Assembly (NCBI GenBank): GCA_000442015.1
Contig: KE560931.1
Coordinates: 1 to 62,177 of the forward strand
DNA length: 62,177 bases
Direction of reading: 5' to 3'
Source of the DNA: Rozella allomycis CSF55
Lineage: Eukaryota
Below, piece after piece: positions 26,686 through 58,783 of this stretch; the first letter of the stretch is position 1; the number at the start of each line of letters is the position of its first letter. The notes under the pieces are model-generated. The model was not told the DNA's origin, searched no databases, and saw only the letters and a program-made list of their open reading frames with translations. The position numbers were made by a program, and so were the translations under genes.

Positions 26686-26740
26686 ATTACTTTAATTATG
26701 CAAGTTCATATATTTGACATAAAAATAGCATTTTTATTAA

Positions 26741-27724
26741 TTAGCGCTTTTTATAAATGCAAGGTTTCAATAAAGTAAAAGGAGGGTCTCTATATGGAAC
26801 ATTTTCTTCTTTTCGAAAGAAAAACAGCTTGAACATTTTATTTTCTTCTCGTTGTACCAGAAGGAATCCCAGTGATTTTAGCCAAACCAAAAACTTTTCT
26901 TCATTTTCAAAGCGACTAGTAACCTCAGCAATTACTAATTCACCCCTGTAAAAAAGTAATAAAAAAATTACTTGGAGTGTAAAATTCTCATCGCTTCCTT
27001 TATAAATGACGCATAGTTGACACCCATTAGAGATAACGAAAATATGACGGCGTCTACGCTTTCGTCTTTCAGTGGAGTCTAAAACATAAACCTTAAGAAC
27101 ACATCTTACTTTAGAAATATCACATGCAGTAATAAATTCGTTTGCGGCTACCAGATCGAATGAATGAATTTCATGAATAGTGTGAAGAGTTTGTGCAAAT
27201 TTTGCTTCACCGCAGCCCATATCAGCAATTTTCAAATTCTTGAATCTTTTGAAATGTGCTATGATGGCGTCTAGTGGATTCAAAGGCCATTTCTTGACCT
27301 GGGTGCTAAATCCTTCGTGATAAATATCGAAAAGAGATGGAGATTCTTGAAATAAATCGAATGCGGACCCGCTTTTAGTCGTGTATAGTTTCTCATTAAT
27401 CCACCGAAATCGACCGGCGTTTAAGTTCTTCTCCAGCTTTGAAAGTTTACTGACAGGCTTTTTAGCAGATTTTGAAAGCGCTGGAGTTTCCTGACTATTA
27501 TTAATTTTGGTTTCACTGGTATTTAAATTAATTATCTTCTGTTTTTGTGTTTTTAGTCTTTTTGTGGGCAAAATCTCTTTCTCATTTGGCTGTTTCAATT
27601 TTGGTTTAGACTTAATCTCATTAGTACCTGAAGGAGTTTTTCTTTTTTTCTTTCCCTGACTTCTTTCTGTACTCTGTACGGTTGGTGCTTGAAAATCCCA
27701 GTCGGGCACTGAAAAGAAACTCAT
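26741..27724 (-). CDS. RRP8: Ribosomal RNA methyltransferase RRP8 (spliced)
   Basis: GRFRWINEKLYT, YHEGFSTQVKKWPLNP, IADMGCGEA, IAEVTSRF, LLKPCIYKKR. Confidence 0.95.
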   Translation of the reverse strand: MSFFSVPDWDFQAPTVQSTERSQGKKKRKTPSGTNEIKSKPKLKQPNEKEILPTKRLKTQKQKIINLNTSETKINNSQETPALSKSAKKPVSKLSKLEKNLNAGRFRWINEKLYTTKSGSAFDLFQESPSLFDIYHEGFSTQVKKWPLNPLDAIIAHFKRFKNLKIADMGCGEAKFAQTLHTIHEIHSFDLVAANEFITACDISKVRCVLKVYVLDSTERRKRRRRHIFVISNGCQLCVIYKGSDENFTLQVIFLLLFYRGELVIAEVTSRFENEEKFLVWLKSLGFLLVQREENKMFKLFFFRKEENVPYRDPPFTLLKPCIYKKR

Positions 27725-27809
27725 GTACGACCAGCCACTCAACTCCCAAGTAAAATGTACAAAAAGTTTATTGAAATATAAATTACTGGCACAATTAAAT
27801 ATACTATTA

Positions 27810-28246
27810 TTAACGCCCACGGCCTCTCCCTCTGCCACGTTCTATATTCATCTAATTAACAATTTTTACGCATGCCAGATCCTGCTCTTCTACCTCGAAT
27901 AGAGTCTCCTCCGATATGATGGGCTCTCTTTTTCTTTCCTTTTTCATCCTTAACTTTTTCAATAACCTAAGTTTATAGTTGATTGTAACGCTTACTTCGT
28001 CCGGTACACGTAGATACTTTATCATATTTCCTCGAATAAAGCATTCTGGCATCCTCCAAAATCTGTCACCATCTGGTGATGTACAGATTACTTCTCTTAG
28101 GTTAAGATTCATCCAAGTGTCGCAAGTAACAAGATGGCCATTGTATGTCTCACCATTTTTCAGTTCTACAAGCTAAATATATAAAAAATAGCATGGTTTA
28201 CCATGGGAGAACCAAGAGCTGTGTTCAGTAACGAAAGTGGTAACAT
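27810..28246 (-). CDS. LSM4: U6 snRNA-associated Sm-like protein LSm4 (spliced)
   Basis: MLPLSLL...[24 protein letters not shown]...[19 protein letters not shown]-repeat tail. Confidence 0.95.
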
Positions 28247-28643
28247 TCAGTCTTCAGGAAATCAGAAATTTCAAAATGAAGAAACGCGCAACTCTTGAAT
28301 AAATCTGGGCGAGGAAAGTATTTTCATGAATCGGTATAATGAGATTTGCATGATATTCACGAAATCGAGACCACAAAGACTTCATCTCAATGCGCACTAC
28401 CAAAGAGACTAAGATTAATTGAGTCTTTGCTGATTAATTTCACACCATATACGCCATGCGCCATGTACAGCTATTAATGAAATGAGTGCTGGACTACTAC
28501 TCTTTGTAATCATCTGATCCTATAATTCAATATCACAATTTAATAAACGATTCCACAAATTGTAATTTATTCTTCCCACTTTCCTTTCTCAATCCCACCG
28601 CACCAAACTTAAAGCTTCCCAAAAAGTGCAACCCTGGTCCAAG

Positions 28644-31600
28644 ATGAACGTTGAAGAGTGGCAACGTCTTTTAGGCACAGGCAAGTGTATATAATAATAT
28701 GAATGCAGGCGACATATCAAGCTGTGTGAATTATTTAACGGATATCCGAGCGAGCGTGGATTCGCTTATCGAGTCGCCCGACTTTGTGTTGAATTTCCAG
28801 AGCGTGCTCCAATCATATTTTGCGCAGAGTGTTCCTGTATTTATTGACAATTATGAAAATGTAAAAAATTGGGTGTGCTTTAATAGAAATTGAGGCATTT
28901 GATGTTGGAGATTATGAACCATTTGCCGTGTAATGAGAGTGTGAAGCAGAATGTTGGGGCGCTGGCTGGATTGTGTATGGGGGTGATTGAGAATGATAAT
29001 GAGGAGAATGCGTTGGTTGCGTTGCGTGTGTTTGTTGATTTTCAGAGGAATTTTAGGCCGTTGATGGAGGATAGGGTGCAGCCGTTTTTGGATTTTGTGA
29101 TTGCGTTGTATGATCGGCTGCCTGAGCTGGTGAATGAGGCGTTTGAGGTATGTGGTGTAGTTGGTTGAAATGTAGCAGGCGGATGGACTGGGGATGGTTA
29201 CACCGCCACCTGTTGAAGAGGATGCGATTGTGACTGGAAAAAGTTTGATAAAGAGCAGGAATAGTTTTAAAGTGTTGACAGAGTGCCCGATTATTATTGT
29301 GATATTGTTCCAGCTGCATAGAAAGTTTGTGAATCCTAATATCCAAAAGTTTGTTGAAATGATTGTAAAGGCGTTGAGAATCCAAGTGTCGGCGCAAGTT
29401 GAAGCGCAAAACTTGGCTAATAAGAAGGGAAAGTTGTTTTCTGGGGTGAGTTTGGCTATAAAGAATCGAGGATTGTTTACTGATTTGATATCAGCACAGA
29501 TCAAGACAATGTCTTTTTTAGCGTATATTTTGCGTAGTTTTGCATCTGTGTTGAAGCCACACCAGAATGCGATACCAACTTTTATAATTCAATTGTTGCA
29601 AAATTGTCCACCTGAGGCTAGTGGGATAAGAAAGGAGTTGCTCGTTGCATTGAGACATATTTTGAGTACAGAGTTTAGACAATCGTTTATTCCACATTTG
29701 AAGATACTTTTAGATTCTAATATATTGATAGGTACTGGGAACGCATCGTATGAAACGTTGAGACCGTTGGCGTATAGTTTGTTGGCTGATTTCATTCATC
29801 ATGTGAGATTGGAGTTACCTTTACCATTTCTAGTGTTGACCATATCAGTTTATACAAAGAACTTGCATGATTCTACGATTAGTGGGAATATTCAAACCAT
29901 GTCAGCAAAGTTGTTGGTTAATCTAGTTGATTGTATTGTGAGTGATACGTTTCCAGTCGAGCAAAAGAGACCATTGCTAATAAAGATACTTTCTACGTTT
30001 GTTGATAAATTTACAAGTTTGAAGGAAGGATTGGAATTTTCCAAGAAGAATTTGAATAAGAAAGTTGAAGATGAAGGAATGATTAAGATTAGTCAAGGTG
30101 TTAGTGAGAATGTGAATGAGCCTTTTAGAGAAAACAAGTTTTTATTGAGGACGCTTGTTAGTGGGATGAAGAATATACTGTATGGACTGAAGGGCTGTAA
30201 TCCAGGATCGCCGCAGCAGTCGGGATTGCATGTGAGAGGGTTTTCAGCAGAGGAAAGTGATTTATTTATGAGATTGTTTGTTGATGGAATTGAGTGTTTT
30301 GATATGTATGCGATGACTAGACCAAATGAGAAGAGTGAAGGGAAGCCAACACCTGAAGGGTTTCCCAAGGGATTACCGCATTCAACGATTCCATCTGAAG
30401 AGAAGGAGTTGATGGATCAGTTTGCATTGTCATTTACAGTTATAGATCCAGCGTTGTTTTGTGATGTGTTGACTAGTTGTTTTGAGTACTTTATTGAAAA
30501 GGTTCAGTCGAATGTAGCATTGTTAACAATTCCGCAGTATTTTCTGACTGTTGGGCATAATCCATTTCCGAGTATTCTTTTGAGATATTTGATGAATAAT
30601 TTGGAAGAGATTGGAAAGAAGGATGAATTGAAACCGCAGATCTTGTTGAGACTATTCAAGTTGGTGTTTATGTCTGTGAATGCATTTGCAGAGGAGAATG
30701 AAGGTATATTGCGGCCGCATATATCTGATATAATAACTAATTGTTTGAAGATGTATAGGACAGCTGAAGAGCCTTTGAATTATTTTATCTTGTTGAGATC
30801 GTTGTTTAGAAGTATAGGTGGTGGCAAATATGAAGCGTTGTACAAGGAAGTGTTACCGTTGCTTCCATTGTTGTTGGAGACGTTTAATATGTTGATTGAG
30901 ACTAGTGAGAGGAAATCGTATAAAGAGTTGTTTGTAGAGTTGTGTTTGACGGTGCCTGTTAGATTGAGTGTGTTGTTGCCGTATTTGTCGTTGATGATGA
31001 GACCGCTGGTGACTGCCTTGAAGTCTAATAGTGAGTTGGTTAGTCAGGGGTTGAGAACGCTGGAGTTGTGTATTGATAATTTGACGCAAGTAAGATTGAA
31101 TTGTTTTATTGAAAAGGAATTTCTGGATCCAATATTAGCGCCCGTGTCTGAAGAGTTGATGTCAGCGTTGTGGTGTCATTTGAAGCCGTTGCCGTATAAT
31201 TCAGCGCATGCGAGTGCGACTGTTAGAATATTTGGTAAATTGGGTGGACGAAATAGAAGATTGTTTAAGAATAACACTAATTTGAGTGTGGGGAATGTTC
31301 AAGTTGGAATTGAGATGACGTTGAATGAGAGTTTGAAATTGCCTATGGATGAATTGATTAATGTGAGTTTTAATGTGTTGAAGGGAGAAGAAGAGATATT
31401 TTACAAGAGACATGCGTTTAATGTAGTAAAGGAAGGGGTTATGGGAGTGATGAATGAAGTGTGCCAAGGTGAAGATGATGACAAGATTGGGTTGGATTTG
31501 ATGGTTGAAAAGTATTTGAATAAAGATTTGAAAAGAGAGATAAAGAGTAGATTGGAGAATTTAAAGCAGGAGAGTAGGAATAAGAAGAAGAATGTTGTAG

Positions 31601-34600
31601 AGAGTAGAATAGAGCAAGTTTTGAAGGGAGAGATTGTAAAGAATGAGAATACGAGTTTGAAAAAGGAATCAAAGATGAAGAGTTTGGAGTTGATGATGAA
31701 GAGTTTATTTTATTGTTCAAAGATTGAAGAGTTAAAGGAAGAGGCTGTTGAGTGTTTGAAGAATGTGTATAAGATTTATGGGATATTGAAAGTGAGAGAG
31801 TATTTGGAGATTAGAGAATTTAATTTGAATTTGAATAGTGAAATTAAAGATATTGAAATATTGAATTGTTTAAATGAAATTTTGGTTGAAATTTTATCAA
31901 ATGAAAATTCAGAAATTGTGGAAACAGGAAAACAAGTTTTAATTTTGTTTTATGAGATTATTATTGATTTGTTTGAAAAGAATTATGAGATTATTGGAAA
32001 TTTGAGTATATTTTATCAAATAGCGAGTAGTTTTTGTACATTTTGTTATAAGAGTTTGAATGAAAAGAGAGGAGGATGTAGAGGATTGAAGTTGATTGTT
32101 TCAGAGATGTATTTTGGAAATAAATGGATTTGGATGCATGAAATGAAGTTTACGAGAGCATTGTTGTATATTTTGAAGGATGATGTACCTGATTTTAGTC
32201 GTGGGTTGATTAAAGAAGCGAAAGAGACGTTGAAGATGATATTTAAAGTTGGTAGATATCAGGGTGAAGATAAGGAGCTAAAAGAAGGTGGTTTGAATGA
32301 TAGTGTTAATGCAGAGAGAAAAACTTATTTTAATCAATTGATTTGCTTGTTGGTTGCTGAATTGTCTAATAGTAATGAACAAGTGAGAGAAACTATTAAA
32401 GAATCAGTTGAATATTTATCAGAATTGTATTCAATTTCAATAACAGAAATGTTTGTTCCAGTTAAAGATAGATTGTTGATGCCAATATTTGCTAAACCAT
32501 TGAGAGCATTACCATTTCCCATTCAAATAGGATACATAGAAGCAGTTAATTATTGTATGAAATTGAAACCAAGTTTATTGAATTGGAATGAAGAATTGTT
32601 GAGATTAATTCATGAAGCATTGGCATTAGCAGATGCAGAAGATCATGCTCTTGTATCAAAATCAAATCAACCAAAATCAGCTACTTTATTAACTAAATTA
32701 AGAGTTTCATGTTTATTATTGTTATCTTGTTCATTAGAATATGAAGAAATGCAACATCAAAAACAATTGGCTACTAGAAACAGAATTATTTCAATCTTTT
32801 TTAAATCTCTTTATGCAAGATCTGGTGAAATTGTTTTAGTAGCAAAGAATGGTCTTGGTTCTATTCTGGGTGGAAACAATCATAAAATACCAAAAGATTT
32901 ACTTCAAGTTGGGTTAAGACCTGTTTTAATGAATCTAAGTGATCACAAGAGATTAACAGTTCAAGGTTAACAAATATTATTTAATTAATTTGTAGGATTG
33001 GAAGGGTTAGCTAGATTGTTGGAATTATTGACGAGTTATTTCAAGGTAGAAATTGGAAAGAAATTGTTGGAACATTTAAACCAATGGGCAGATCCAAATG
33101 TATTAGAAGAAGCATCAAAGAAATCACTGCAAGATTCCCAAGAGATTAAAATAATCTCATCAATTCTCAATATATTCCACTTGTTGCCACCCACTGCTAA
33201 TATATTCATGGACAATCTAGTTATAATTACAGTTAAGCTAGAAACAATGTTGAAGAGAAGCAATAATAGTCCATTTAGAGATTCATTGATATGGTTTCTG
33301 CAGAGGTATGCGACTGAAGCGATTGACTATTTTCTGGAGAGGATAAAGAATAATCCTATTAGCAGATGTTTTGTGCAGCTGTTGGAGAATGAAAAGGCTG
33401 AAAAGCTGAGATTAGAGTTGAGAGAGAGTGCGCCAAAGTTTATGAGAGCTTTGAGTAATTTGTTGGAGAGGGAGGTTATCAATGGAATTCAAATCATTCA
33501 TGTAATGTTAAGGTAACGAATAATTTTAAATCTTCAATAGGTAAACAGAGTTAATAGCCTGACAATAGGTATTATGGGAATTGGCTGTCAGAGTTTCCTC
33601 AATTACTGAATTGGCTACAAGCATATTTTGATTCTATTTGTTCAAATGAAGGATTGAATGAGAATTTAATGTACTCACTGCGAGACACAACATCACCAAT
33701 GTTAATGTTGAGATCCTTGATAATCCATTCCAGAAACAATTTTAACATTAAACTGTTTTATTCAATGTTCAGAATAGTAGATTGCAATCCAACGCTATTC
33801 GACCAAACAATTTTAATCAATTTCATCTCTGAAATGATTCCATTAAATTATAAAGAAATGTTGAATGAATTTTGGACATTCTTTGTTGATCCAATAGTGT
33901 CTAATAACCAAAAGTTGTTTGTGTTGAAGTGGATGTTGATTCCTACTATAAAGAGGTACAAGATTGATGCAGAGTTTTTGGAAAAGTTTAAAGAGTGTGT
34001 GTGGAATGGCACGATGGTGTATCAGTTTGGTGAAATTGTGTTGTTGAATGTTATTGAAGCGACGTGTATTCTGCTGTATTGTGTACCTGAAGAGCTGAGT
34101 GAGTATAAGAAGGATATTGGAAAGTTTGTATTTAGTCTACTAGGTAATTTAAATATAACATTGTAATGATTAGGTAAAGAAATAGTTTAAACTTAAAAGG
34201 TGTGGATGATCCATTTACAAAGCAGGCTGCGTTTGTTGCCGCTTCATACTACATTAAAAACTTTGAAACACCAATTAAGCTAGTTCTACAAATAATAAAT
34301 TTAATGTTGAAAGCATCGCCCACAGAGACGAGGCATTTAATTAGACAGTCGCTGAATGTATTATTGTCTAGTCAGAATATCAGTGATTTGATTAAAGTGT
34401 TCCAGAGTGCGGTGATAGAAGAGGCGCATTTACCGCAGACGCTGATGATGGTGTGGCAGGTGTTGGTGTCGTTTCCAGATGCGTTTTATGAGTTTAGGAG
34501 TTATTTTATTCCGTGTATTGTGAATTCGCTGAGTAGGATTGGGTTGACTGTGTCTAATTCTGTTGATTCGAAGATGTTGACTGTTGAGTTGGTTGCTGTT

Positions 34601-37600
34601 ATTTATTCGTGGTTAGATGGAGGTGAGAGAGGTGAGAGAGGTGAAAAGGGAGTGGAGAAGAGAGATGAGAAGGGAGTGGAGAAGAGAGTGGATGCTCAAA
34701 TGAATATAGATCAAATGGATGTAGATCAAGAGTTTGAATTGAATTTGAATACTATAAATTTAATTGTTAATTATTTAGTTAAATTGAGTTTGAATGTGAA
34801 TAAAGCAGAGCTATTTGACAAATGCTGTTTGCTAGTAGGCAAGTTTATAAAAAAGTATCCCTCAGTGACCATTCAAATAAACAATTTTGAAAAGATATTT
34901 GTGAATGCAGAATTAACGATAGAAAGTACATCAACGTTGTGTGATGCATTGAAACTGATTGAGACTATATTGAAGGTTGATGAGTTTGATTCTGTTAGAT
35001 TTGTTTCTAGTCTTGATAAATGTTTTGAGAGATTGTTTTCTATTGATTATTTGAAAGTTAATGAAAGTGTTTTGCCTATTTTTGAAATGTTGATTGAAAG
35101 GAATATTATTAGTGAGAGAGTTGAAGAGAGGGAGGCATTGAATGAAGTTGAAATGAACACCAGTGCAAGTGCAGACGTTGTAACTGCATCACCCACTACT
35201 ACTACCACCAACCAGTCTAGTTTGAATGGTTTGATAAGTTTGTCTCATGATAATGTGATACAGCAGAGAAATTTGAATATAACATTGACATTTTTATCAA
35301 TATATTACAAGAATAAGCAAATGAATGAACAATTGTTGATTGCATTGTTGAGAATATTGATGATTTGTTCAAGAGACTTGCAACAGATAATAAATTGTAA
35401 TAAAACAGAATCAAATATAAATTTAATAAATATAGCATCAACACCCAATCTAACAAATGGAAATAATAATAGTAATAGTGTTAAATCTAGTATAACTTCA
35501 ATTCCAAGTGTAATGTTGACTATTAATACGTTGATTCTGTTGATTAATTTATGTTCTGATTGTATTCATTTATCATTTGAACACAAAAGGTAATCTAGTT
35601 TAAACTATTTTGAATAGAAATTATTTTGTTTCAATTTCAAGTATAGCAGAAAAGAGTAATGATAAATTATTATTAAAGAATATTTTTGAATTGATTAAGA
35701 GTTGGATTGTTAAATCAGAGAGTCCAACCATTAAAGAAAAGGCTCAATTAATGTTACGATTATTATGTCTAGAAAAAGATAAAGAATTATTTAAAGAATA
35801 TTTATTGCTAGTTTATGAAATCTACAAGAATCCAATCTATTCGAAATCAGAGTTGACTGTGAGATTGGAGCCTGCGTTTGTTTTTGGGTTGAAGAATGAT
35901 AATTATGAAATTAGAAATTTGTTTTTTGATTTGTTTGATGCTTCTATTCCTAATAGTTTGAATGTTAAATTAAAGTATATTCTGTCGTGTCAGAATTGGA
36001 GTTATTTTAAGGATTATTTTTATTTGAATCAGATATTCAATCTATTACTGCGAGTATATTCAAGTACTACTAGTTCAAATTCCACTTCTACTAGTTCAAA
36101 TCATTCAACTTCTACTAGTTCAAAACATTCAACTTCAACTTCTTCTCCTTCAATCTTTCAGTCAATTGAAAATTTATTGTTTTGTGATAAAAATTCAACT
36201 TGCTTTTATTTTACTGAATTATTTAAACTAATTTATTCAAAAATGAATGAAAATGAAAAGATTGAATTGAAATCTCTTCTTGTAACATTTCTATCTAAAG
36301 AATATCACATCAAATCACAATCATTAAGACCAAATGTTATTCAATGTTTCATGAATGCCATTTCTCAACTAGACCCTATCATTCCAATCTCTTGTCATCT
36401 TGTTAAATATTTAGCCAAAACTTTTAATTGTTGGTATTCAAGTATTATCTATCTAGAGAAATGTTTATCCAGTAGCAGTAGTTTTAATACTGATGATTCT
36501 AATACTAAAAATAATTCTTCAATGATAACTGATGTTCTATCTTCTCTTTACAACACTCTATCAGAAAACGACATGTTCTATGGCTTATGGCGAAGAAGAT
36601 CCATCTACACTGAAACAAACGTAGCGTTATCCTTTGAGCAATTCGGCATGTGGAAGCAAGCCCAAGAAATGTACGAAAGCGTCCAAAACAAAGCACGAGC
36701 GGGACATTTGCAGTTCACTGAATCCGAATACTATTTATGGGAGGAGCGTTGGATTGACTGTACCAGGAAACTGCAGCAGTGGGAGCTGTTGAACGAGCTG
36801 GGCAAGCATGAGAATAACTCTGATTTGTTGCTGGATGCGCATTGGCATAACTCTGATTGGATTCAAGACAAAGAGTTGATACTGCCGCTGGTTAAACAGT
36901 GCAAGAATAACCAGAAGAGAGTCTATGATGCGTTTCTTAATTTGTTGGCGATACAGGAGGGTAATGATAAGGGCATTGAATTTCAGCGTCAATATGAGAA
37001 TGGTAAGCAGATGGTATTTGAGTTATAATAGGTAATTAGTTCAGTTTAAAATGATTATAGGTAAGCAAATGTTAATGTTATTATTATAGGTATTCAAACT
37101 TGCTTGATTAAATGGCATTCTTTTCCAAATATTATCTCTTCTTGCCATATTCCACTACTAGTTGAATTTCAACAATGGTTAGAATTAAATGAAGCATTCG
37201 AAATTTATCAAAACTTTAATTCCAACAATAAACAACAAATGATTCAAAATGTCAAAGGTAAACTTATTAAATCGTTTTATAGTTAAAAGGTGCATTGTCT
37301 ACTTGGAGAGATAGGTTACCGAATATTTGGGACGATATTTCAATCTGGAGTGATCTAGTGGCTTGGAGACAACACGTGTATAATTCCATAAACAAGGTAT
37401 TCCAACCATTTGCATCAGAGCCCAATGCGGCACAGAATGCATCGTTTGCGTTTAGAGGATATCATGAAATTGCATGGATTATTAATAGGTTTGCGCATGT
37501 GGCGAGAAAGCATCAGTTGAATGAAGTTTGTGTTGGTTCTTTGAACAAAATTTACACGTTGCCTAATATTGAGATTCAAGTATTAGTTAATTTATATATG

Positions 37601-40305
37601 GATAGGATGCGTTTTTAAAGTTGAGGGAGCAGACAAAGTGTTTTTTGACGAGTCCTGAAGATTTGCCGACTGGATTGAGAATTATTAATGATACGAATCT
37701 AGGTAATTCTAATGTAGGAATAATCATTTAAGGGTATTTTGCTAATCCACAGAAAGCTGAGTTCTTTACATTGAAAGGGATATTCTTGTCTAAAATGAAT
37801 ATTCACGATGAAGCCAACAAAGTAATTCCAATTTTGAATATCTAATAAAGGTGTTTCAACAAGCTGTTCATATTGATATGAATTTGCCAGTTGGTTGGGC
37901 AGCATGGGGTCACTTCAACGATCAAAGGTACCATCATTAATCCTTTCCTCCAAATATAGATTCCAAGCAACAAAGGACATTGCATTCTGTGCCAACGCCG
38001 TCAACTGTTACCTCCAAGCAGCGAACATTTACCGAAACTACCGTTCCAAAAAGTATCTCGGGCGGTCACTTTGGCTGCTGTCAATAGACGATTCAACTGG
38101 CTCAACGATGAAGAGTTTCGAGCTGCACAGCAATGATATTCCTGCGTGGCAGTGGATCCATTTTATTCCGCAGTTGCTGAATTCTTTGGCCAGAAAGGAG
38201 GCAAAGCAGGTGAGGTGTTTTTTGTTGGTTGAGTAGGTGAGGACTATATTGTTGAAGATTGCGAAAACGTTTCCGCAGGCTGTTTATTTTAATTTGAGGA
38301 CTATTAATGAAGAGTTTTTGCAGTTGAAGGATGAAGAGGTTGGTGGGAGTGAAGGTGATGATGGAAAGGAGTGTGTTGGGAATACAGGGAATACTGGGAA
38401 TAATGGGAAAGATAATACAGTGAATAATGGTGCTACTAGTTCTAATACTTCTACAACTATGTCAGCTAATAATAATCTTTCAATATCTACTTCTACCACG
38501 TTGAATGCTACTCCAGCTACACCAGTTATTGAAGGATTGAATATTCAACCAACATCAATATTAATGCAGAATCCAATACCAACAACACCAATAACAAATA
38601 ACAATGAAACAAGAAAGAAACATCCATGGGAATTAACAGAAGAATTAATGGCAGTTATAAAGACTGGATATTCATTACTAGCGCTTTCAATGGAATCAAT
38701 GGTTGATCATATAATGCAAAGATTGAGGGCAACACCAGATGAAGATTTCTACAGAATAATTATTACCTTGCTATTTGAAAGTTATCAAGTAAATAATCTA
38801 ATTAAGATTGATGAATAGCAATTTAATGCAAAGATTGAAACAAATTTGATTGAAAATAGTTTAATTAAAGTTAGTGAAATGATTTCATCCAGTCAACATC
38901 CAAATCATCATTTCAAGAAAGAATTTGATCAAGATTTTATAAAGAATAGTCCAAATTTGATTCAAACTATTGATAAGTTATTAGAATGGAAGTTTAAATT
39001 GGAACCTTTAATAAAGAAACTGCCAAAAGTTTTGCATTTGGAGAACTTTAGTAGATATCTAGTAGAATTTGAACATCAGAAATACGATGATGTTGAAGTG
39101 CCTGGCCAATATTTACTTGATTTTGAATCTAATAATGAATTCATTAAAATAAAAAGATTTGAACCTCAAATTGATATAATAAAGAGACATGGAACTTGTT
39201 TAAGAAGAATTTACATTAGAGGCCACGACGGTTCTTTATCGCCTTTTGTTATTCAAAATCCAGCTGCTAGGCATTCAAGAAGAGAAGAAAGAGTTTTGCA
39301 ATTGTTTAGAATGTTTAATCAATTAATTCAAAGAAGAAAAGAAACTAGGCAACGCAATTTATCTTTTAATATGCCCTTGATCATTCCTCTATCTATCCAT
39401 GGGAGAATAGTTCAAGATGATCCATTCAATGTTTCTCTTTCTGATATCTACAATTCACACTGTGATTCTATTTCTATTAACCCTGATGATCCTCTAATCT
39501 TTTACAGAAACCAAATCAACCAATTCAATCTTTCTAAATCTTCTCCTGAATTGCTCAACGTCAAATTAGATTTATTCGACAAGATCCAAGCGTTCATCCC
39601 TGACAATATTCTTTCAAACTATTTCATTAATTCTTGTGCCACATTTGATGATTTCTGGATTCTCAGAAAACAATTCACGCTCAATTATGCAACGTTGACT
39701 TTTATCACTTACATTATGAGCATTGGCCATAGATTTCCTTTTAAGATTTTCATTTCAAGAAAAACTGGCAATGTTACATTCTCTGATCTTGTTCCTGGTA
39801 ACTATACATTTCTCCTGTAATCTTAGCGTTGAATGCTGTTGGCCAATTCACTTTAACTGAGCCTGTTCCATTCAGACTCTCTCCAAACATCCAAACATTC
39901 ATCACAACAATCGGCCTCGAAGGCGTCTTTTCATCAGCACTAGTGTCCATCGCCCGCTCCCTATCCGAGCCGCAGGTAACACAACTCTCCAATCCAACCT
40001 AGTTTGAAATGGAAGACTACTTATCGCTGTTCATGCGCGACGAGCTGTACGCATGGTACCTGTCCGCACAAAAGAACACGCACGAGGCGATTGTCATCCC
40101 TGAAAACGAGTTTAAGAGCAGAGTTGCGCAGAATGTCGAGCTGGTTCTAAAGAGGACGCAGACTTTGGCGTGTGTAAAGGAGAGGGAGACGCCTATTGCT
40201 CACCAGACTGTGCCTGTGAACCAGACTATTATTGATCTCGTGTCGTGTGCTGTTAATCCGCAGAAATTGTGTCAGATGGATATGCATTGGCATCCTTGGT
40301 TATAA
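28644..40305 (+). CDS. TRA1: TRA1/TRRAP PIKK pseudokinase (SAGA/NuA4 scaffold), multi-exon; first intron 28681-28708 is GC-AG
   Basis: [40 protein letters not shown] domain, [23 protein letters not shown] ending WHPWL. Confidence 0.96.
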
Positions 40306-40368
40306 TAAATTATTTTTAGTGTGTGATTATTTTTAGTGTTTAAGGTGACTATTTAGGGGTGTGAGATC

Positions 40369-40689
40369 TTTAGTGCGAAAGGAAAGTCGCATTTAAACTC
40401 GACACTGGAGCCTCATGCTCACAGGTTAACAGTCACTTAGCTAAAGTAATCGGCGTGAAAAGCCATCCCAAGCTTCTTATAATTTCCCAGACAGGAGATG
40501 GATCCGTTAAGTGCGACTATTTGGGACTATTTGGGTATGGTGAATGTGGAACTGAAGGGTATTAGCTCGCCATTGGTTATGAGAATAGCGCCGAATCAAC
40601 CTAATGTGCTTGGATTGGATGCGGTGTTTCGGTTTGGAATCGTGATTGATCCGGTTAAAGGGTCGTATACTCAAGACCGGTCCCGCTGA
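40369..40689 (+). pseudogene. Retropepsin-like aspartic protease remnant
   Basis: FKLDTGASCS...LAKVIGV and NVLGLDAVFRFGIVID; frame broken by a 10-bp tandem duplication GACTATTTGG (40515-40534). Confidence 0.6.
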
Positions 40690-41089
40690 AGGATGAAGAG
40701 CATATGTTTGACTTTATTGATTTTAAAAGATACATGTCGAGGATGGGTATCACGGACGAAGATTTGATTCCGGTGGATGATTTGCCGGATCCAAATGTTG
40801 CTTATTATAATCTCTTGAAGGCGGGAAATGCAAATGCAGCGATACATTTACTTTAATGCAAGAATTTGTTATGTCAACTAGCCTCTTAGACTCCTCATAA
40901 TTAAATTTATACTATGTGTTTAACTTTACTGTGTCTTTGTAGAGTGTTTCGTTTTTAATATTACGCGGTTATCCTTTAAAAAGATTGAATTAATTAAATT
41001 AATTTCGTTGACATATAAGAGATCACAAAGTTTTTCACAAATGGAATCAGAATAATGTCAAACAAGTTGTATGCAAATAGAGATATTTA

Positions 41090-41670
41090 TTATCGACGCC
41101 ATTGGCCATTGACTAGATAGCCAGCAAAATTAAAGGCTTCCAACAACTTTGCTTTTCATGTGTCCTTGTCGTATTCCCGAGATATAAAGATCACCCCACC
41201 TCTGAACCATGTTATAGGCTTTAGTTCCAGGGGCACTATGATTTTATTTATACTTTGCTTTACTTTTTATTATCACGCGACTAATTGTTGCCTCAACAAA
41301 GTAATAGTGCCTGTTAAAAAGGAACATTTTTGATCCTCGTGTCGAAATTATAGATATCTTTTAGACCCACAGTCACTTCTATCTTCACAACTTCGAAACT
41401 AACATCCTGTCTTCGACACTTAACATATTCGCGAGTCATATTTAAATGTGGTGATAGCGAGAGCATAATTTGGTTTTTTTGAGCCCCTTTGGATTTTGTC
41501 TGGACATATACATTGAAAGCAACCAGTTAAACTTCCATTTATCACCAATTCATAAACATTTCGATATACAGTATCAAAAACTTTGATTATCGATAGGTAT
41601 GAAACTTGAATGATATCAAAGCAAGATGGTATTGGATAAAAATATGGATTATTATGAACAATCTTCATGG
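41090..41670 (-). pseudogene. Degraded copy of the 3' half of secreted family member C
   Basis: TGCFQCICPDKIQR, DIYNFDTR and AKLLEA match 26180-26600 at protein and DNA level, with frameshifts and stops. Confidence 0.8.
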
Positions 41671-41863
41671 TAGTGTCAGGAACGCCAATTCAACAGGCCG
41701 TCACGGGTATGGAAATCCATAAGAGCGTCAATTAAACATGATTTCATCACAATTTTATCAGTTAAGAAGTTGAATACTTGATTTCTAAAAAGACTATCGT
41801 AACTTGTTATTTCTTGTTAAATTATTGGCTTTATTTATATCGTACCCGGTTACTACATTTCAT

Positions 41864-42437
41864 TTACTCTTCATCACCGTCCATCCAACTCTCCTCTACA
41901 ATCTCCTTTACCCTTCTATAATACTCTTTCCTGTTTTCTTGATAGAGCTGTGCAGCCTCTGCATTAGCTGGACTATTAGGATTAGGATCATTCAACAGCG
42001 ACTATCCTTCCGAAAGCAACATTATACCTGTATACTTGTCAGCACAGCACTCACATCATATGTCGGGCTCCATCTGTTCTGTAAAATATCCAAACAAAGC
42101 TGGCCATTCACATACACTGTAAATTGGTTTTATATAATTTACCATTCGGATGAAACATTTTGGAAACAAATTTTACATTCGGAGCCTTGGTAGGATATTC
42201 TTCGTCAAATATCAACTCTAATTTGAAGGTGCCGTCTTCAAAAGGCGTGTCTTCGGGTCTGTCTTGCATGGGATTTGGTGGTTACCCGATTATCAATGCA
42301 TCCCAGGTTAGCAGGTTGTCGGGCCGTGGCGTACCCGTTATTCCAGTGGGAGCGTCTTGCTGGATTCTGGTGGAATGGTAAAGTTTGGCTTACCGTTTGA
42401 AGTCACGCATTAGGCGGCGTCTGGCTTGTGTAGACAT
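41864..42437 (-). CDS. RAD6: Ubiquitin-conjugating enzyme RAD6/UBC2 (5 exons)
   Basis: [67 protein letters not shown]. Confidence 0.95.
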
Positions 42438-42542
42438 CTTTTTGTGGCGAGGTTACAAAATGCGAGTTCCAAGGAAAGCTGGTAGATTTATTGATATTTT
42501 AATGTTACATATTTGTTATGCGTTGATACAAAATTTATTAAT

Positions 42543-44024
42543 TTAGTAGCCGTATTTTTCATTCAAATGCGTCCTCCCGTCGCCCTTTTGATCAGCTGGC
42601 GGTTGCCATTTTTCTTCATGAGGAATCACCTTATTTCCTATCTCATCTTGATCGGAAAGCGTTTGAGGAGATGCTGATTTTATTTGAATGGTCTGTGGAC
42701 TGGGCAAAGTTGATTGGGGTTTTGTAACTGAGTACTCTTTTTTATTAGTCTTAGGCTCTGACTTTTGTTTCTTTTCAGCACCGCTTATGACATCATCCTG
42801 ATGGTCTGAGCCTTCAATTTTCCTCTTGGTTGGATTTTCAGCTATTTGTTTAACCGTCTGAGTTAAAAATTCAAAGGAACCTGCCGGTTTGGCGATCTTG
42901 ATAAGCTTTTCAAGCCTAGCTTTTTCCTTTTTAACATTTGTATAATAATTACCTTTAAGAGTTCTTCAATTTGTAAATTTTTGATATCATAATCTTCCTC
43001 TTTAATCTTCTTGTTTATTGAATTCATGTATGCATCCAAATCATCTTCTTCTTGCACAATATTGACTAGAATTAATAGAATAAAAGTTTACCTTCAAAGT
43101 CATTCTTGTCTTTTTCAAGTTCAGCTATACTCTTTACAACATGAGCTAACTTTTTGGTCAAAGAGTCAAAAGTTTCCACGGAACTTTCTTTTTCTTCATA
43201 TTTTTTATCTATTTAAATTAACTCTTCAGTTTACTTGTAGCGGTTCTATCAAAGTATTCGTCGTTTCCATCTTCGTCATCAGATTTTTCCCTTTCAATCA
43301 TTTCAACTACAAATTGATAACCTAAAATGCTTTTACCCGGTGCTTCAATCATCCCTTGTTCATCAAGTTGGGCTAGTGCATCCAATGTAGCGGCCTTGCG
43401 GGCTTCAGGTTTCGTTTTTTCACACCCCTTTCCAACTATTTTAAAGGGAGGCTCATCTAACGGTAATTCTATTTCACACAAGAAACTATCCTCCTTTTTG
43501 GAAAAAGAAAAGTTGGCTTCAACTCCGCATTGCTCTGTCCAGTCAGACAAAAATTCTATTGGATTCTCTTCATACCTTTTTCTTGGAGTCTTCACATTCT
43601 CTTGTCTGCTTTCAGGCTCAGGACCGTGAACAATAAATGAGCGAGTGCTTGCACCGAATTTCAGTATAAAGCCTGGATTCAACTTAATGTACGTTCCAGA
43701 CTGTATTTTCTCCTTGTTTAGGAAGGTACCATGCGCTGAACCCAGATCATAAACGAATAATTCATTCTTATCACTCTTAAATTGCAAAACTGCGTGGTAT
43801 CGTGAAACTGAGGCATGCTCCATTGACACATCACAGATTGGTAGTCTAGAATAATGAAATCTCCGTGTGTTTTACCGTCCAACAGTCAGAAATGATTTTC
43901 CAAGTTTGGACAAGTCAAAAATATCTAATACTGATCCTTGTTTGATTATTTCTAATTTCCATCCGTCGCAAATAGGCTCTTTGCTCCATTCTGGCTCTTT
44001 ATATTGTAAAACTGGCTCTTGCAT
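42543..44024 (-). CDS. Kanadaptin/SLC4A1AP-like FHA-domain protein (spliced)
   Basis: YKEPEWS, GRLPICDVSMEHASVSRYHAVLQF, DLGSAHGTFLN, dsRBD-like segment, C-terminal WQPPADQKGDGRTHLNEKYGY. Confidence 0.88.
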
Positions 44025-44046
44025 TATTTCTGAAATTTCACAACCT

Positions 44047-45416
44047 ATGGATCTTTGGGTTTTTCAAATAGGACAGTGTGGTAATAATCTGGGTCAAGAG
44101 CTATTCAGCACTGTCTTTAATTACGCAGAAAACATAATGAAATCAAATCCATGTAAAAAGAGAACACGATTTGTGAAAGAAACGCTAGATATCTTTTTCG
44201 AAATGGATTTAAGAACGATGAGTAATGGAATATTTGATTTTATAAAGAGCCGATTGCAAAAGCGTTTTGCATTGATACAGAACAGAAAGTTGTTAAATCT
44301 TTGGCTAAACAGAGGTCTTGGAGTTACAGCGATAGGCGGAAAGTTACGTTAAAATCTGGGGCCGCCAATAATTGGGCATATGGGTAAGATATTGTAAATA
44401 AAAATAAAGCTATTTTAAACTAGCCCACAAAGCAATTGATATGCTTGATCAAGAATTCGTACGTCTCAAGAAACGTAATAAAAGACTTACATTTTTAGTC
44501 CTGTCTAGCTTATCTGGTGGCACTGGAAGCGGGATAGGGACCTACGTTACGGAAATTTTGAGACTTAGATTTCCTGGTGCTTTTATTATAAATCAAGTCA
44601 TTTGGCCGTTTTTGCATGGTGAAGTTGTCCTGCAGCATTACAATATTCTGCTTTCATTAAGCCATTTAAATAAGGTCTATTTTGATTTTCATTTTGATAT
44701 ATAGGCATCCGATTTGATTTTAATACACGAAAACGACGATTTAACAAATATTTGCAAGAAAAGGTTTCACATCGAGAATGTTACTTTTAAAGATATGAAT
44801 AAATGGGTCATTAGATGCTTAATGCAGGTTCTATTACCCGTCGAAAACTCCGATTGCGAAGAATTCAGACGAAAAGTCTATGGAAATACTCGAAAATGCT
44901 ATTTAATATATTCGGCGCCTCAAGTACGAATGTATTATCGAATCTGATTCAGATATCGGAAGATTTAAAATCATATTCCAATTTCGATTGGAAAAACGTA
45001 GCCAAAAATTGCATTCAAATGGCTTTAACGAAGTGCGCAACCGACGAGGGAATTTCTTGGTACCCATCTCAAAACTCAGTCCAAAATTATATGAATATGA
45101 TAATTATATTACGCGGTCCAAAGTCATTGGAAAATTCTGAAAATTTTCAAAGTTATTCGCCACACGTCATGTATAATGAAGTTGGGATGCCTCAATTTAA
45201 AGATATAAGTTGCACTTTACTTGTGTAATTGTCATTTTTTATTACAATAGAGATTCATCGGCGATTTTTAATTTATTGAGAACATTGATGGGAAAAGTTA
45301 TTTTGATGATGAACCATAACGCTTTCATTTTTCAATATGAAAAACATGGGTGTTCTAAAGAGCATATGCTTGCTTGTAAAGACTTTATCAGTAATTTGAT
45401 GAATTCATATCGGTGA
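44047..45416 (+). CDS. TUBD1: Delta-tubulin (spliced)
   Basis: QIGQCGN, IDTEQKV, GAANNWAYGY, SLSGGTGSG, IWPFLHGEVVLQHYNILLSLSHL, HEND. Confidence 0.85.
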
Positions 45417-45441
45417 AATAAAGTTTTGTAAATTTCTTGTT

Positions 45442-56624: not shown

Positions 56625-58783
56625 ATGTCTTTCATGCAAAAGGAATTATCAGACTTGATTTCCTTTTACTCTGACTGGATCTCCCAAAACAACAACCTCA
56701 AAAATGAAACATCTTTCATCATCCTCAATCATCTAGTTAATGACCTGCATTTACTAGCTGCCAAAGTTAAAGCCACTAAATCAGTACTCTTCTAAAATTC
56801 TTCCCAAAGGATTCCACAATGAAAAAATCTCTTTCAAATCTCACTACTCTCTTCTCCTCCTACAAAGATTCAGACACAGAATCTCCAAAGAAATCTTCAG
56901 ATTCTCACGACCATCACAGAAACAATGTTTTCAAATTCTTCTCTGCAAAATCCAGAGGTAATTACTCCACATATTTACAATAGATTCAGAACACAACGTC
57001 ACACGCTCATACTCGGATCCATCCGTTTCCTCGTACAACTCTTACAAAGACACTACTGAGAAATACACCCAATCTTCAACTTCCAATTCTCCACTCAAAG
57101 AAATCGAAACAGTTTCTAATAGCGCTGATTCTGACAATGCGCAAAAAGACTTTGCATTGACTGAAATGAAGAAGCATTTCGCCGGTATCAAAGAGAATAT
57201 CCATAAACAGTCAAACTCTGTTTCTTCCCAAGAAGATATCTTTCTCAAAGGTATAGTAATGGACTTTATCGGCAACGTAGAATTTTCTCAGAATAATTCT
57301 ATTGTTAGGAAACCGTCTAAATCGGCGGAAAAGAGGAAACCTTTGAAATGGTTTGTCAGAGAATTCAACAAGAATCCTTCAAAGGTAACAATTCGCATGT
57401 TTTATTAATTCAGGTACCCAGACTTTGTTAATGTGATATATAGGTTCAAAAATTCATTAGGAAATAACAATAGGCTATTAACAGTCTGGTCGAAGAAAAG
57501 TATCTAGAGTTGGATCCTCAATCAGTGTCATCCTTTCTTCATACAGAAAAGCGTTTAAATAAGAAGAAAATAGGTGAATATCTAGGCGAACAGTAAATTT
57601 CAATGGTACATATTATAGCGACCCATTCAATCTCAATGTCTTGAAAGCATTCGTCGGTGACTTCAATTTTCAGGGTCTAGATTTTGACGTCGCATTACGG
57701 TAATCATCTCTATATTCAATTGTAGGAAACTTTTATCTGAATTCAGATTGCCCGGGGAGGCTCAGAAGATTGACAGAGTTGTCAACACATTCGCCGCACG
57801 GTACTGTGAAAACAACCCTACAGTTTTTGAATCACCAGGTACTCAATTCCAACAAATAACATTAGACACCGCCTATGTCCTTGCATTTTCGCTAATCATG
57901 CTGAACACAGATGCGCACAATCCTAACGTCAAACACAAGATGACACTCAGAGAATTTATCAGAAACAACAGAGGTACTACTATTAACAAGTTACAATAGG
58001 CATTAATCACCAAAAAGACTTGCCCGAAGAGTTTTTGAAAAAGATGTTTTGCAATATCACCGAAAACGAAATTAAAATGGACTCGATAGATGACGAGCAA
58101 CAGAAAATGGAGAGCTTGATGGCTACGCTAGTGGCGAAACCGGATGTATGATTATATATGGGTTTTCAAAAGGATTTGAGCTCGCCGGATAGATGTCTCA
58201 TTCAGCAATTCAATGTTGGGATGCTGACTGAAGTTGATACTGAGCCTGTTGAGCATTCTCGCGTGTTGTATCTTTTCAATGATTTAATTTTGGTAATCAA
58301 TTTGGGTTTAACGTATTAGATTACTAAAGCCATAAAGAATGGGCGCAAATTTCAAGTAAAATCAAAATACTGCATTGGCAATGATACGTGTGTTGAAAAT
58401 ATCTCATTAAATGGTAATGCATAGCCCATGTTTTTTATAGATCATCCGTATTCCGTTAGGTTATTTTCAAACACGTCGGATAAAACAAACTCTTTCATTT
58501 TTGATTTCAAGATACAAAATAACAGGAAACTGTTTTTTGATTCCATAAAGGAAATTCTCGCTGAAATGAAAGGCGAGATTTACGAGGCTAGCGGTAAAGA
58601 CTTCAGGTGATAGTGTTTAGATGACGATTTCAATGATCATACTCTTACAAAGGCCGCCGCTGCAAAAGCTATTCTTGAGCAAACATATGCGGCAGATGAA
58701 GGGAATAGATATAAGAAATTCGGATCGTTGAGAGAAGCAAGGACAAAATTACATGCCAGGTTTATTCCTGTAAAGGATCCATG
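56625..58783 (+). CDS. Sec7-domain ARF guanine nucleotide exchange factor with PH-like domain (multi-exon; ends approximate)
   Basis: [58 protein letters not shown]. Confidence 0.88.

What the first reader, a model, noticed from the sequence alone, without database searches (positions are those of the whole stretch)
37003..37089. Triple abutting mini-intron array in TRA1 (candidate recursive splicing, zero-length exons)
Between ...GAG AAT G and GT ATT CAA ACT lie three back-to-back 29-nt units, each GT..AG: gtaagcagatggtatttgagttataatag | gtaattagttcagtttaaaatgattatag | gtaagcaaatgttaatgttattattatag. Retaining any one unit gives an in-frame stop. Removing all 87 nt gives [11 protein letters not shown], which matches the Tra1 EGIQ-x-x-LIKW motif without a gap. 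Almost every other intron in the window is 26-32 nt, so I infer stepwise removal through regenerated AG|GT sites. Units 1 and 3 resemble each other, which suggests tandem duplication of an intron.
Basis: partly seen in the sequence, partly recalled or inferred. Interest (0 to 1): 0.9.

Follow-up and report, generated by a model that had tools for sequence, protein, structure and literature searches.

The report
Back-to-back mini-intron arrays in Rozella
In a fungus whose introns are almost all about 28 bases long, every longer interruption found in this stretch of genome is built from two or three complete mini-introns placed end to end with no exon between them, which suggests that they are cut out one unit at a time, although no RNA data were available to show it.

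Summary
Window 37003-37089 is three abutting 29-nt GT..AG units inside TRA1. A 100%-identical protein record names the organism Rozella allomycis CSF55. Removing all 87 nt gives a gap-free fit to 51 homologs and matches the public gene model. All 7 partial-retention states give early stops.

It is not a one-off. I found 54 confident single introns of 24-38 nt (50 of them 26-32 nt). All four intervening sequences longer than 40 nt split exactly into 26-30-nt units: 28+28, 30+26, 29+29+29 and 29+30+30, the last in a Sec7 gene.

- Each unit scores like a stand-alone intron; the TRA1 units score 17.0-18.2 against a median of 13.3.
- Shuffled interiors decompose this way in 0.2-3% of trials per array.
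- Abutting intron pairs: 6 seen, 0.15 expected (P about 1e-8).
- Units 1 and 3 are 21/29 identical; the other 7 within-array pairs are at background.

Best reading (about 0.6): modular arrays of independent mini-introns, removed unit by unit through zero-length exons. This is inferred, not shown. The main rival is one-step removal with unused relic internal sites. I rate it a new variant of recursive splicing.

The parts
28699..40305 (+). TRA1/TRRAP gene: 16 intron positions holding 20 mini-intron units
   Evidence: Pfam hits Tra1_central, Tra1_ring and PI3_PI4_kinase. My spliced model matches the public protein P0174 (3676 aa) over 3677 aligned columns at 99.8% identity, with 6 differing positions.
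37003..37031 (+). Unit 1 of the triple array (29 nt, GTAAGC...TAATAG)
   Evidence: Score 18.2 on a matrix trained on stand-alone introns only, whose median score is 13.3.
37032..37060 (+). Unit 2 of the triple array (29 nt, GTAATT...TTATAG)
   Evidence: Score 17.0. No more similar to units 1 or 3 than unrelated introns are.
37061..37089 (+). Unit 3 of the triple array (29 nt, GTAAGC...TTATAG)
   Evidence: Score 17.7. 21 of 29 bases identical to unit 1.
34144..34199 (+). Double array in TRA1: 34144-34173 (30 nt) plus 34174-34199 (26 nt)
   Evidence: Removing all 56 nt gives SLL|GVDD, which is gap-free against 38 full-length homologs and matches P0174. A minor allele in run X2 carries an extra C behind 34191, inside unit 2. 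That base would be coding, and the insertion a frameshift, under the alternative 23-nt intron model. An X3 contig covers 26000-34462 with no differences.
33513..33568 (+). Probable double array in TRA1: 33513-33540 (28 nt) plus 33541-33568 (28 nt)
   Evidence: unit scores 14.5 and 14.5. The public model instead removes 33502-33557, also 56 nt, giving PDNR where my model gives VMLR. Homology cannot decide between them.
57385..57473 (+). Second triple array, in a Sec7-domain gene: 57385-57413 (29 nt), 57414-57443 (30 nt), 57444-57473 (30 nt)
   Evidence: The downstream exon matches Sec7 profile positions 19-57 starting at its first residue. The shortest frame-consistent single GT..AG removals are 86 or 89 nt. 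Unit scores are 11.2, 11.2 and 8.7.

Best explanation
The 87 nt form a modular array of three complete, independent spliceosomal mini-introns with zero-length exons between them. Such arrays are a regular feature of this genome. Introns here sit at about 26-32 nt, and longer intervening sequence exists only as whole multiples of that unit.

Mechanism (inferred). Each unit carries its own 5' site (GTAA..), its own 3' motif ([A/T]N[A/T]ATAG) and the species-typical length. Pairing each 5' site with the nearest competent 3' site therefore removes one unit at a time.

Every boundary is AG|GT. Removing any unit, or any run of units, leaves either the finished exon junction or a shorter array that is still made of intact introns. 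Any order of removal therefore converges on the same mRNA. Any incomplete product carries an early stop.

Origin (inferred). The arrays were gained in this lineage, at least partly by local duplication between AG|GT microhomologies (units 1 and 3). The internal sites have since been kept by selection.
For: Shown:
- The whole array must be removed.
- 54 confident single introns are 24-38 nt long, 50 of them 26-32 nt. All 4 of 4 intervening sequences longer than 40 nt decompose into 10 units of 26-30 nt.
- On a matrix trained on the 54 single introns only, the 10 array units score 8.7-18.2. Single introns, scored leave-one-out, have a 5th percentile of 7.2 and a median of 13.3. The three TRA1 units score 17.0-18.2.
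- Shuffled interiors decompose into GT..AG units in 1.6%, 3.1%, 0.4% and 0.16% of 20000 trials for the four arrays.
- In a context-free scan at score 11 or more, there are 6 unit pairs at gap 0 (5 distinct boundaries) against 8 pairs in total over gaps 1-30.
- Internal exon lengths in the gene models are six zeros, one false 3-nt exon beyond the TRA1 stop, then 55 nt or more. About 0.15 abutting pairs are expected; Poisson P = 1.3e-8.
- 7 of 8 within-array unit pairs have diverged to background similarity, yet all keep splice signals.
- Between units 1 and 3, none of the 8 mismatches falls in positions 1-7 or in the last 4 (read). Hand hypergeometric P is about 0.01; the choice of positions was post hoc.
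- No stable RNA fold would shorten the 87-nt or 89-nt segments: z = 0.45 and 1.06.
- The downstream exon starts with GT in 3 of 4 arrays against 5 of 54 single introns (Fisher P = 0.007).
- 79 of 80 distant TRA1 loci have no intron at this site; the 80th is truncated.
- The arrays are in the DNA. An X1 contig spans 33222-45703 with no gaps, and an X3 contig spans 26000-34462 with no differences.
Against: - No splicing intermediate, lariat or partial junction has been seen. Unit-wise removal is an inference from the sequence.
- The public gene model is equally consistent with single 56-nt and 87-nt introns. At 33502-33557 it chooses boundaries that do not decompose into units.
- The single-intron set was found with a search limited to 20-40 nt, so the absence of undecomposable long introns is not an independent result. 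When longer introns were allowed, 16 proposals were inspected. Three are contradicted by homology or Pfam continuity, two were resolved as coding exon, and the rest are unverified.
- One junction, in the P5CR gene at 3195, has no canonical short solution. It is either a 28-nt GT..TG segment, which homology favours, or an undecomposable 52-nt GT..AG intron.
- Relatives can splice longer introns in one step. A 76-nt intron of the microsporidian Encephalitozoon cuniculi is reported as spliced at about 80% (PMC6349667, passages read).
- Only 4 arrays from one 62-kb window were examined.
Confidence: 0.6

Rival explanations
1. The array is one ordinary 87-nt intron. Only the outer 5' site (37003) and the last 3' site (37089) are used. 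The internal AG|GT sites are unused relics of tandem duplication of a 29-nt intron.
For: - Units 1 and 3 are 21/29 identical, so a duplication did occur.
- The public gene model is consistent with single long introns, and at 33502-33557 it picks an undecomposable 56-nt intron.
- A related lineage splices a 76-nt intron efficiently (PMC6349667, passages read).
- Fungal spliceosomes in general handle 50-100-nt introns (established knowledge).
Against: - 7 of 8 within-array unit pairs are at background similarity. Most units are therefore old or unrelated, yet all 6 internal boundaries keep both a 3' and a 5' site, and the unit scores fall in the range of working introns.
- Every unit is 26-30 nt long, which a one-step model does not require.
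- No decayed, undecomposable intervening sequence longer than 40 nt was verified among 58 intron positions.
- One-step removal would mean skipping two competent 3' sites that lie nearer to the 5' site.
Confidence: 0.27
2. The array is an artefact. Either it is an assembly error that duplicated a short intron, or the gene is broken and the 87 nt are not removed.
For: The window differs from three read sets at 5 sites in 36464-36504, so it is not error-free.
Against: - The three units differ from one another at 8-13 of 29 positions, so they are not collapsed or expanded identical repeats.
- An X1 contig spans the array without gaps, and an independent X3 contig confirms the two double arrays base for base.
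- The flanking exons stay open and conserved for 466 and 64 codons.
- The same architecture recurs in another gene 20 kb away.
Confidence: 0.02
3. The units are removed by something other than the spliceosome, such as DNA-level excision as for ciliate internal eliminated sequences, or translational bypass.
For: The unit size resembles that of the short internal eliminated sequences of ciliates (recalled, not tested).
Against: - The units have the same GTAA...[A/T]ATAG ends, composition and length as the 54 other introns of the window.
- The organism is a fungus that uses the standard genetic code.
- DNA read sets carry the units.
Confidence: 0.01

Closest known systems
Recursive splicing at zero-length exons (ratchet points) in long Drosophila and human introns
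   Same: A 3' splice site lies directly against a 5' splice site (AG|GT). The intervening sequence can be removed piecewise, and a 5' site is regenerated after each step. (PMC8605326, abstract seen in the search listing; PMC10809524, passages read.)
   Different: In those cases a few ratchet points subdivide introns of tens of kilobases, and removal is thought to be strictly sequential. Here the whole segment is 56-89 nt, every piece is a minimal complete intron, and the pieces could be removed in any order. The long-intron context is recalled from general knowledge.
Zero-length exons in Schizosaccharomyces pombe
   Same: Fungal examples of a 3' site immediately adjacent to a 5' site, with the full intervening sequence removed (bioRxiv 10.1101/226894, passages read).
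   Different: That paper reports two instances in the whole genome, one of them in a 336-nt intron of a non-coding snoRNA host. Here there are 4 arrays (6 boundaries) in 62 kb, all in protein-coding genes, and all with units at the species' standard intron length.
Stwintrons (spliceosomal twin introns) of filamentous fungi and Lipomyces
   Same: Complex intervening sequences in fungi that are removed by consecutive standard splicing reactions (PMC7138796, abstract and passages read).
   Different: Stwintrons are nested. The internal intron interrupts or sits inside the external one and must be removed first. Here the units are side by side, complete, and do not depend on one another.
Dual-specific AGGT splice sites
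   Same: One AGGT serves as both a 3' site and a 5' site. Arrays of such sites occur in tandem repeats, and duplication has been proposed as a route to new introns (PMC10809524, passages read).
   Different: In human UBC the repeated units are coding ubiquitin monomers that are skipped at random. Here the units are non-coding mini-introns that must all be removed.
Tiny-intron genomes (Paramecium about 25 nt; microsporidia)
   Same: A narrow intron length distribution near the lower limit for splicing. (Paramecium: abstract of 10.1101/2021.08.05.455221, seen in the listing. R. allomycis S23 introns of about 30 nt: PMC6349667. Intron medians of 29-197 bp among a set of fungi that includes R. allomycis: PMC8042348.)
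   Different: In the passages, abstracts and listings I saw, none of these sources mentions abutting arrays. I did not read the papers in full, and their supplements were closed.

Membership tests
U2-type GT-AG spliceosomal intron (each 29-nt unit) | GT at the 5' end and AG at the 3' end | tested here: met
   All three units of this array, and all 10 units of the four arrays.
U2-type GT-AG spliceosomal intron (each 29-nt unit) | Extended 5' and 3' signals and length typical of the species' own introns | tested here: met
   A matrix was built from the 54 stand-alone introns only. The units score 18.2, 17.0 and 17.7 against a median of 13.3 for single introns. Each is 29 nt, within the 26-32-nt main range.
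U2-type GT-AG spliceosomal intron (each 29-nt unit) | Removed from the mature mRNA through a lariat | not testable with these tools
   This needs RNA or lariat data from the organism. Removal of the whole 87 nt is supported only by homology and by the public gene model.
Recursive splicing / zero-length exon | A 3' splice site directly abutting a 5' splice site inside an intervening sequence | tested here: met
   TAATAG|GTAATT at 37031/37032 and TTATAG|GTAAGC at 37060/37061.
Recursive splicing / zero-length exon | A 5' site is regenerated at the exon end after the upstream piece is removed | tested here: met
   Read directly from the sequence: AATG|GTAATT after unit 1 is removed, and AATG|GTAAGC after units 1-2 are removed.
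Recursive splicing / zero-length exon | Splicing intermediates observed (partial junctions, separate lariats) | not testable with these tools
   No usable RNA data; see Tried and rejected.
Stwintron | An internal intron interrupts a splice signal of an external intron, so that removal must proceed inside-out | tested here: not met
   The units are side by side. Each has intact signals before any splicing takes place.
Tandemly duplicated intron | Units more similar to each other than unrelated introns are | tested here: inconclusive
   Met for unit 1 versus unit 3 (21/29; top 0.07% of 1431 background pairs). Not met for the other 7 of 8 within-array pairs.
Tra1/TRRAP | Tra1 HEAT-repeat regions, a FAT region and a PI3K-like domain, in that order | tested here: met
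   Pfam Tra1_central, Tra1_ring and PI3_PI4_kinase on successive exons. Full-length homologs are 37-50% identical.

The most novel reading that the evidence does not exclude
The splicing machinery of Rozella allomycis pairs splice sites only over about 24-40 nt. Introns multiply by AG|GT-mediated local duplication. Longer intervening sequence therefore exists genome-wide only as quantised arrays that must be removed by serial splicing through zero-length exons. If so, this would be, as far as I know, the first organism in which recursive-type splicing is a routine, constitutive step for many protein-coding genes. About 7% of intron positions in this window are arrays.
Probability: 0.3. Interest if true: 0.85.

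Novelty: new variant of a known kind. Interest (0 to 1): 0.7.

Why it matters
- **Length limit on splicing.** It would show that intron length can be quantised. A lineage close to the microsporidia would tolerate extra intervening sequence only as whole extra introns. That points to a tight length ruler in splice-site pairing and gives a natural system in which to test it.
- **Intron gain.** It offers a simple, observable route to new introns. Duplicating a whole mini-intron between AG|GT microhomologies yields a unit that is functional at once.
- **Annotation.** Gene models that forbid zero-length exons will record 56-nt and 87-nt introns. They will undercount introns and sometimes pick wrong boundaries, as may have happened at 33502-33557.
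- **Recursive splicing.** Zero-length exons have been known as rare devices of very long animal introns. This would make them a common feature of a compact fungal genome.

Tried and rejected
**RNA evidence**
- The look-up of sequencing runs listed no RNA holder.
- I laid the one RNA run that shares the species label (X9). It gave only matches of about 20 nt that run on into unrelated sequence, so there is no usable cover. This says nothing about expression or about the splicing route.

**Whole genome and relatives**
- No whole genome is held for the window, so the genome-wide intron histogram could not be made.
- A search for close relatives in metagenome contigs found none.
- The alignment-based scan gave only distant TRA1 loci, 32-45% identical.
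- Earlier findings of this scan held nothing for this genome or for these words.

**Gene finding**
- My first runs with a flat intron length prior either over-used introns or jumped over real exons and were discarded.
- The final set comes from a search limited to 20-40-nt units, with arrays allowed, followed by filters: gene score 40 or more; at least 25 open codons on each flank; read-through closing soon after the donor.
- Rows dropped by these filters include 35397-35435, 56240-56269, 27079-27109, 43307-43336, 42927-42952, 17614-17639, and the false 40299-40319 and 40323-40356.
- I replaced 37586-37605 with 37580-37605 and added 37928-37959, both from homology.

**Other candidate abutting pairs**
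- 11440/11469 is rejected because the first "unit" is coding in the public protein.
- 35562/35590 is rejected because it is not frame-consistent.
- 41571/41597 and 48210/48244 are rejected because neither has open flanks.

**Other checks**
- RNA structure that might shorten a long intron: none beyond shuffled sequences.
- Literature searches for abutting, tandem, juxtaposed or contiguous introns, zero-length exons, and Rozella introns returned no paper whose listing or read passages describe arrays of abutting mini-introns. Only open-access full text was searched, and supplements were closed. Table S7 of PMC8042348, which would give the per-species intron medians, could not be seen.
Full report
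**The observation**

Window 37003-37089 reads as three back-to-back 29-nt units: GTAAGCAGATGGTATTTGAGTTATAATAG, GTAATTAGTTCAGTTTAAAATGATTATAG and GTAAGCAAATGTTAATGTTATTATTATAG. They lie between ...GAGAATG and GTATTCAAACT....

**Gene and organism**

The surrounding + strand open frames carry Pfam Tra1_central, Tra1_ring and PI3_PI4_kinase in order, so the gene is TRA1/TRRAP. Long open frames under the standard code and fungal best hits indicate a fungus.

A later protein search returned a record 100% identical to the window's ISWI exon, on a contig of 62177 nt. NCBI names it as from Rozella allomycis CSF55. The full TRA1 model of the same organism is P0174, 3676 aa.

**All 87 nt must be removed**

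- With the 87 nt removed, the protein reads ...[17 protein letters not shown].... This aligns without a gap at the junction to 51 of 51 homologs.
- My hand-curated TRA1 model has 16 intron positions. It equals P0174 over 3677 aligned columns except at six positions, and P0174 contains [12 protein letters not shown].
- All 7 of 7 states that retain one, two or three units give an in-frame stop 2-9 codons after the junction.
- The only shorter frame-consistent removal is 37003-37065 (63 nt). It would leave 24 nt, 8 residues, that are absent from every homolog.

**The intron population of the window**

I built a simple gene finder using codon usage from the long open frames plus a splice-site matrix. 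Runs with a flat intron length prior misbehaved and were discarded. The final run allowed units of 20-40 nt and arrays of abutting units.

After filtering and two homology-based corrections, 54 confident single introns remain.

| Length (nt) | 24 | 26 | 27 | 28 | 29 | 30 | 31 | 32 | 34 | 36 | 38 |
|---|---|---|---|---|---|---|---|---|---|---|---|
| Introns | 1 | 11 | 13 | 11 | 7 | 5 | 1 | 2 | 1 | 1 | 1 |

Fifty of the 54 are 26-32 nt long. Their consensus is GTAA at the 5' end and [A/T]N[A/T]ATAG at the 3' end. Pfam profile continuity across several of them (SYF1, thiolase, P5CR) supports the models.

Caveat: the search was limited to 20-40 nt by construction, so it cannot discover long introns. 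When long introns were allowed, I inspected 16 proposals.
- Three are contradicted by homology or Pfam continuity.
- Two resolve into coding exon.
- The rest look like coding or intergenic sequence but are unverified.

**The finding is one of four arrays**

Every intervening sequence longer than 40 nt that I could establish splits exactly into standard units.

| Array | Gene | Units (nt) | Support |
|---|---|---|---|
| 37003-37089 | TRA1 | 29+29+29 | Homology and the public model, as above |
| 34144-34199 | TRA1 | 30+26 | Removing 56 nt gives SLL\|GVDD, gap-free against 38 full-length homologs and identical to P0174 |
| 33513-33568 | TRA1 | 28+28 | Probable; the public model removes 33502-33557 instead |
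| 57385-57473 | Sec7-domain gene | 29+30+30 | See below |

For 34144-34199, the rival 23-nt intron would add 11 residues that no homolog has. A minor allele in run X2 has an extra C behind 34191. This is harmless inside unit 2, but it would be a frameshift under the 23-nt model.

For 33513-33568, the public model's alternative removal is also 56 nt, and the local sequence is too poorly conserved to decide between the two.

For the Sec7 array, the downstream exon matches Sec7 profile positions 19-57 from its first residue. The shortest frame-consistent single removals are 86 or 89 nt.

The arrays are present in DNA read sets. An X1 contig spans 33222-45703 without gaps, and an X3 contig spans 26000-34462 without any difference.

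**Statistics**

- **Unit quality.** On a matrix trained on the 54 single introns only, the ten array units score 8.7-18.2. Single introns scored leave-one-out have a minimum of 5.8, a 5th percentile of 7.2, a median of 13.3 and a maximum of 19.6. The three TRA1 units score 18.2, 17.0 and 17.7.
- **Decomposability.** Shuffling each array's interior gives a decomposition into GT..AG units of 24-38 nt in 1.55%, 3.05%, 0.42% and 0.16% of 20000 trials. The rates are lower still when the score threshold is also applied.
- **Context-free scan.** On both strands at score 11 or more, there are 6 unit pairs at gap 0. These are 5 distinct boundaries plus one alternative end. Gaps 1-30 hold 8 pairs in total. 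At score 8 or more the counts are 12 at gap 0 against a mean of 2.5 per gap.
- **Exon lengths.** Internal exon lengths in the gene models are six zeros, one false 3-nt exon beyond the TRA1 stop, then 55 nt or more. With 73 units in 36 kb of coding sequence, 0.15 abutting pairs are expected; Poisson P = 1.3e-8.

**Origin**

Units 1 and 3 share 21 of 29 bases. This exceeds all 220 same-length background pairs, whose maximum is 65%. The other seven within-array pairs are at background.

The eight mismatches between units 1 and 3 all avoid positions 1-7 and the last four positions (read). By hand hypergeometric calculation P is about 0.01, but the site set was chosen after the fact.

In 3 of 4 arrays the downstream exon begins with GT, against 5 of 54 single introns (Fisher P = 0.007). 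In 3 of 4 arrays the upstream exon ends with AG, against 15 of 54 (P = 0.08). Arrays therefore tend to be bracketed by AG|GT. That fits duplication or deletion of whole units by slippage between these short repeats.

In 79 of 80 distant TRA1 loci from metagenomes, the protein match runs straight through this site, so there is no intron there; the 80th locus is truncated. The array position is therefore a gain in this lineage or a loss in all the others.

**Mechanism**

Shown:
- Each unit has the complete signal set and length of a working intron.
- All boundaries are AG|GT.
- Any subset of whole units can be removed and what remains is still a set of intact introns.
- Incomplete products carry early stops.

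Inferred:
- Each 5' site pairs with the nearest competent 3' site, so units leave one at a time, in any order, perhaps with occasional multi-unit jumps.
- The internal sites are kept by selection, because most units have diverged completely yet none has lost a site.

Neither the 87-nt nor the 89-nt segment folds better than shuffled sequences (z = 0.45 and 1.06). A structure-shortened long intron therefore has no support.

**Main rival**

The main rival is one-step removal of a single 87-nt intron with relic internal sites. In its favour:
- The unit 1/unit 3 duplication.
- The public model, which is consistent with single long introns.
- The report that a 76-nt intron of a related microsporidian is spliced efficiently (PMC6349667, passages read).
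- The fact that my absence of long introns is partly built into the search.
- One awkward junction in the P5CR gene at 3195. Homology to solved P5CR structures (5bse_A, E = 5.5e-5) says LFETVGK... is coding. That leaves a 28-nt GT..TG segment, or a base error at 3221, as the short solution. The only canonical alternative is an undecomposable 52-nt intron that would delete conserved residues.

I put unit-wise removal at about 0.6 and one-step removal at about 0.27.

**Comparison with what is known**

| Known system | How this case differs | Source |
|---|---|---|
| Zero-length exons subdividing very long animal introns | Here the whole segment is only 56-89 nt | Listing |
| Two zero-length exons reported in all of S. 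pombe | Here 6 boundaries in 62 kb, in coding genes | 10.1101/226894, |
| Fungal stwintrons, which are nested and removed inside-out | Here the units lie side by side and are independent | PMC7138796, |
| Dual-specific AGGT sites that delimit coding repeats in UBC | Here the units are non-coding and must all be removed | PMC10809524, |

Short (about 30 nt) introns in R. allomycis are on record (PMC6349667). So is an intron median of 29 bp in one of a set of fungi that includes it (PMC8042348; the table with per-species values is a supplement I could not see).

Six literature searches returned no paper whose listing or read passages describe arrays of abutting mini-introns. Subscription papers and supplements were not searched.

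I therefore rate this a new variant of a known kind. The principle of zero-length exons is known. New here are the arrays made wholly of minimal introns, their frequency (4 of 58 intron positions in this window) and the apparent quantisation of intron length.

**Limits**

- This is one 62-kb window with four arrays.
- There are no RNA data.
- The gene models are partly my own.
- One array (33513-33568) has disputed boundaries.

Noticed in passing
window 3195-3246 (P5CR gene, about 2731-3625, + strand): This junction has no canonical short solution. Homology to solved P5CR structures and Pfam framing require removal of 28 nt (3195-3222) that begin GT but end TG. The only GT..AG alternative is 52 nt and would delete conserved residues. 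It is either a non-canonical intron or a base error at 3221, where an A would give the usual ATAATAG end.
   Followed up: partly
window 26000-45999 in runs X2 and X3: Many variant positions sit at about one third of the local depth (for example 88 of 238, 95 of 266, 108 of 313, 121 of 365, 209 of 608). This would fit three genome copies with one divergent copy, or a mixed population.
   Followed up: no
window 36464-36504: At five positions all three DNA runs (X1, X2, X3) agree with each other against the window. The public TRA1 protein likewise has A and A where the window encodes D and T, in a serine/asparagine-rich stretch. This is probably an assembly or strain difference.
   Followed up: partly
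window 29148-29178: There are tandem acceptors 3 nt apart (..TGTAG CAG). My model uses the 28-nt intron, while the public model uses the 31-nt one and so lacks one glutamine.
   Followed up: partly
window 10001-14000 and 30001-36000: Very strong G over C skew on the coding strand of the ISWI and TRA1 exons: GC skew is 0.26-0.55 in 2-kb windows, against about 0-0.1 elsewhere.
   Followed up: no
window 56240-56269 (SYF1 gene): A 30-nt segment has perfect intron ends and a T-rich interior, but its length is a multiple of three and it has no in-frame stop. It could therefore be an intron or coding sequence. I left it out of the counts.
   Followed up: no
window 7511/7512 (LanC-like gene): A real exon begins with GTAAAC directly after an intron's TATAG, so a strong-looking AG|GTAA boundary is not always an array. 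Here no AG lies at intron distance downstream, and the sequence encodes what looks to me like the usual LanC C-terminal motif (judged by eye; no family search was run on this exon).
   Followed up: yes
protein P0175: A JGI-sourced TRA1 of 3249 aa is 50% identical to the window's, closer than any named fungus (45% or less).
   Followed up: no
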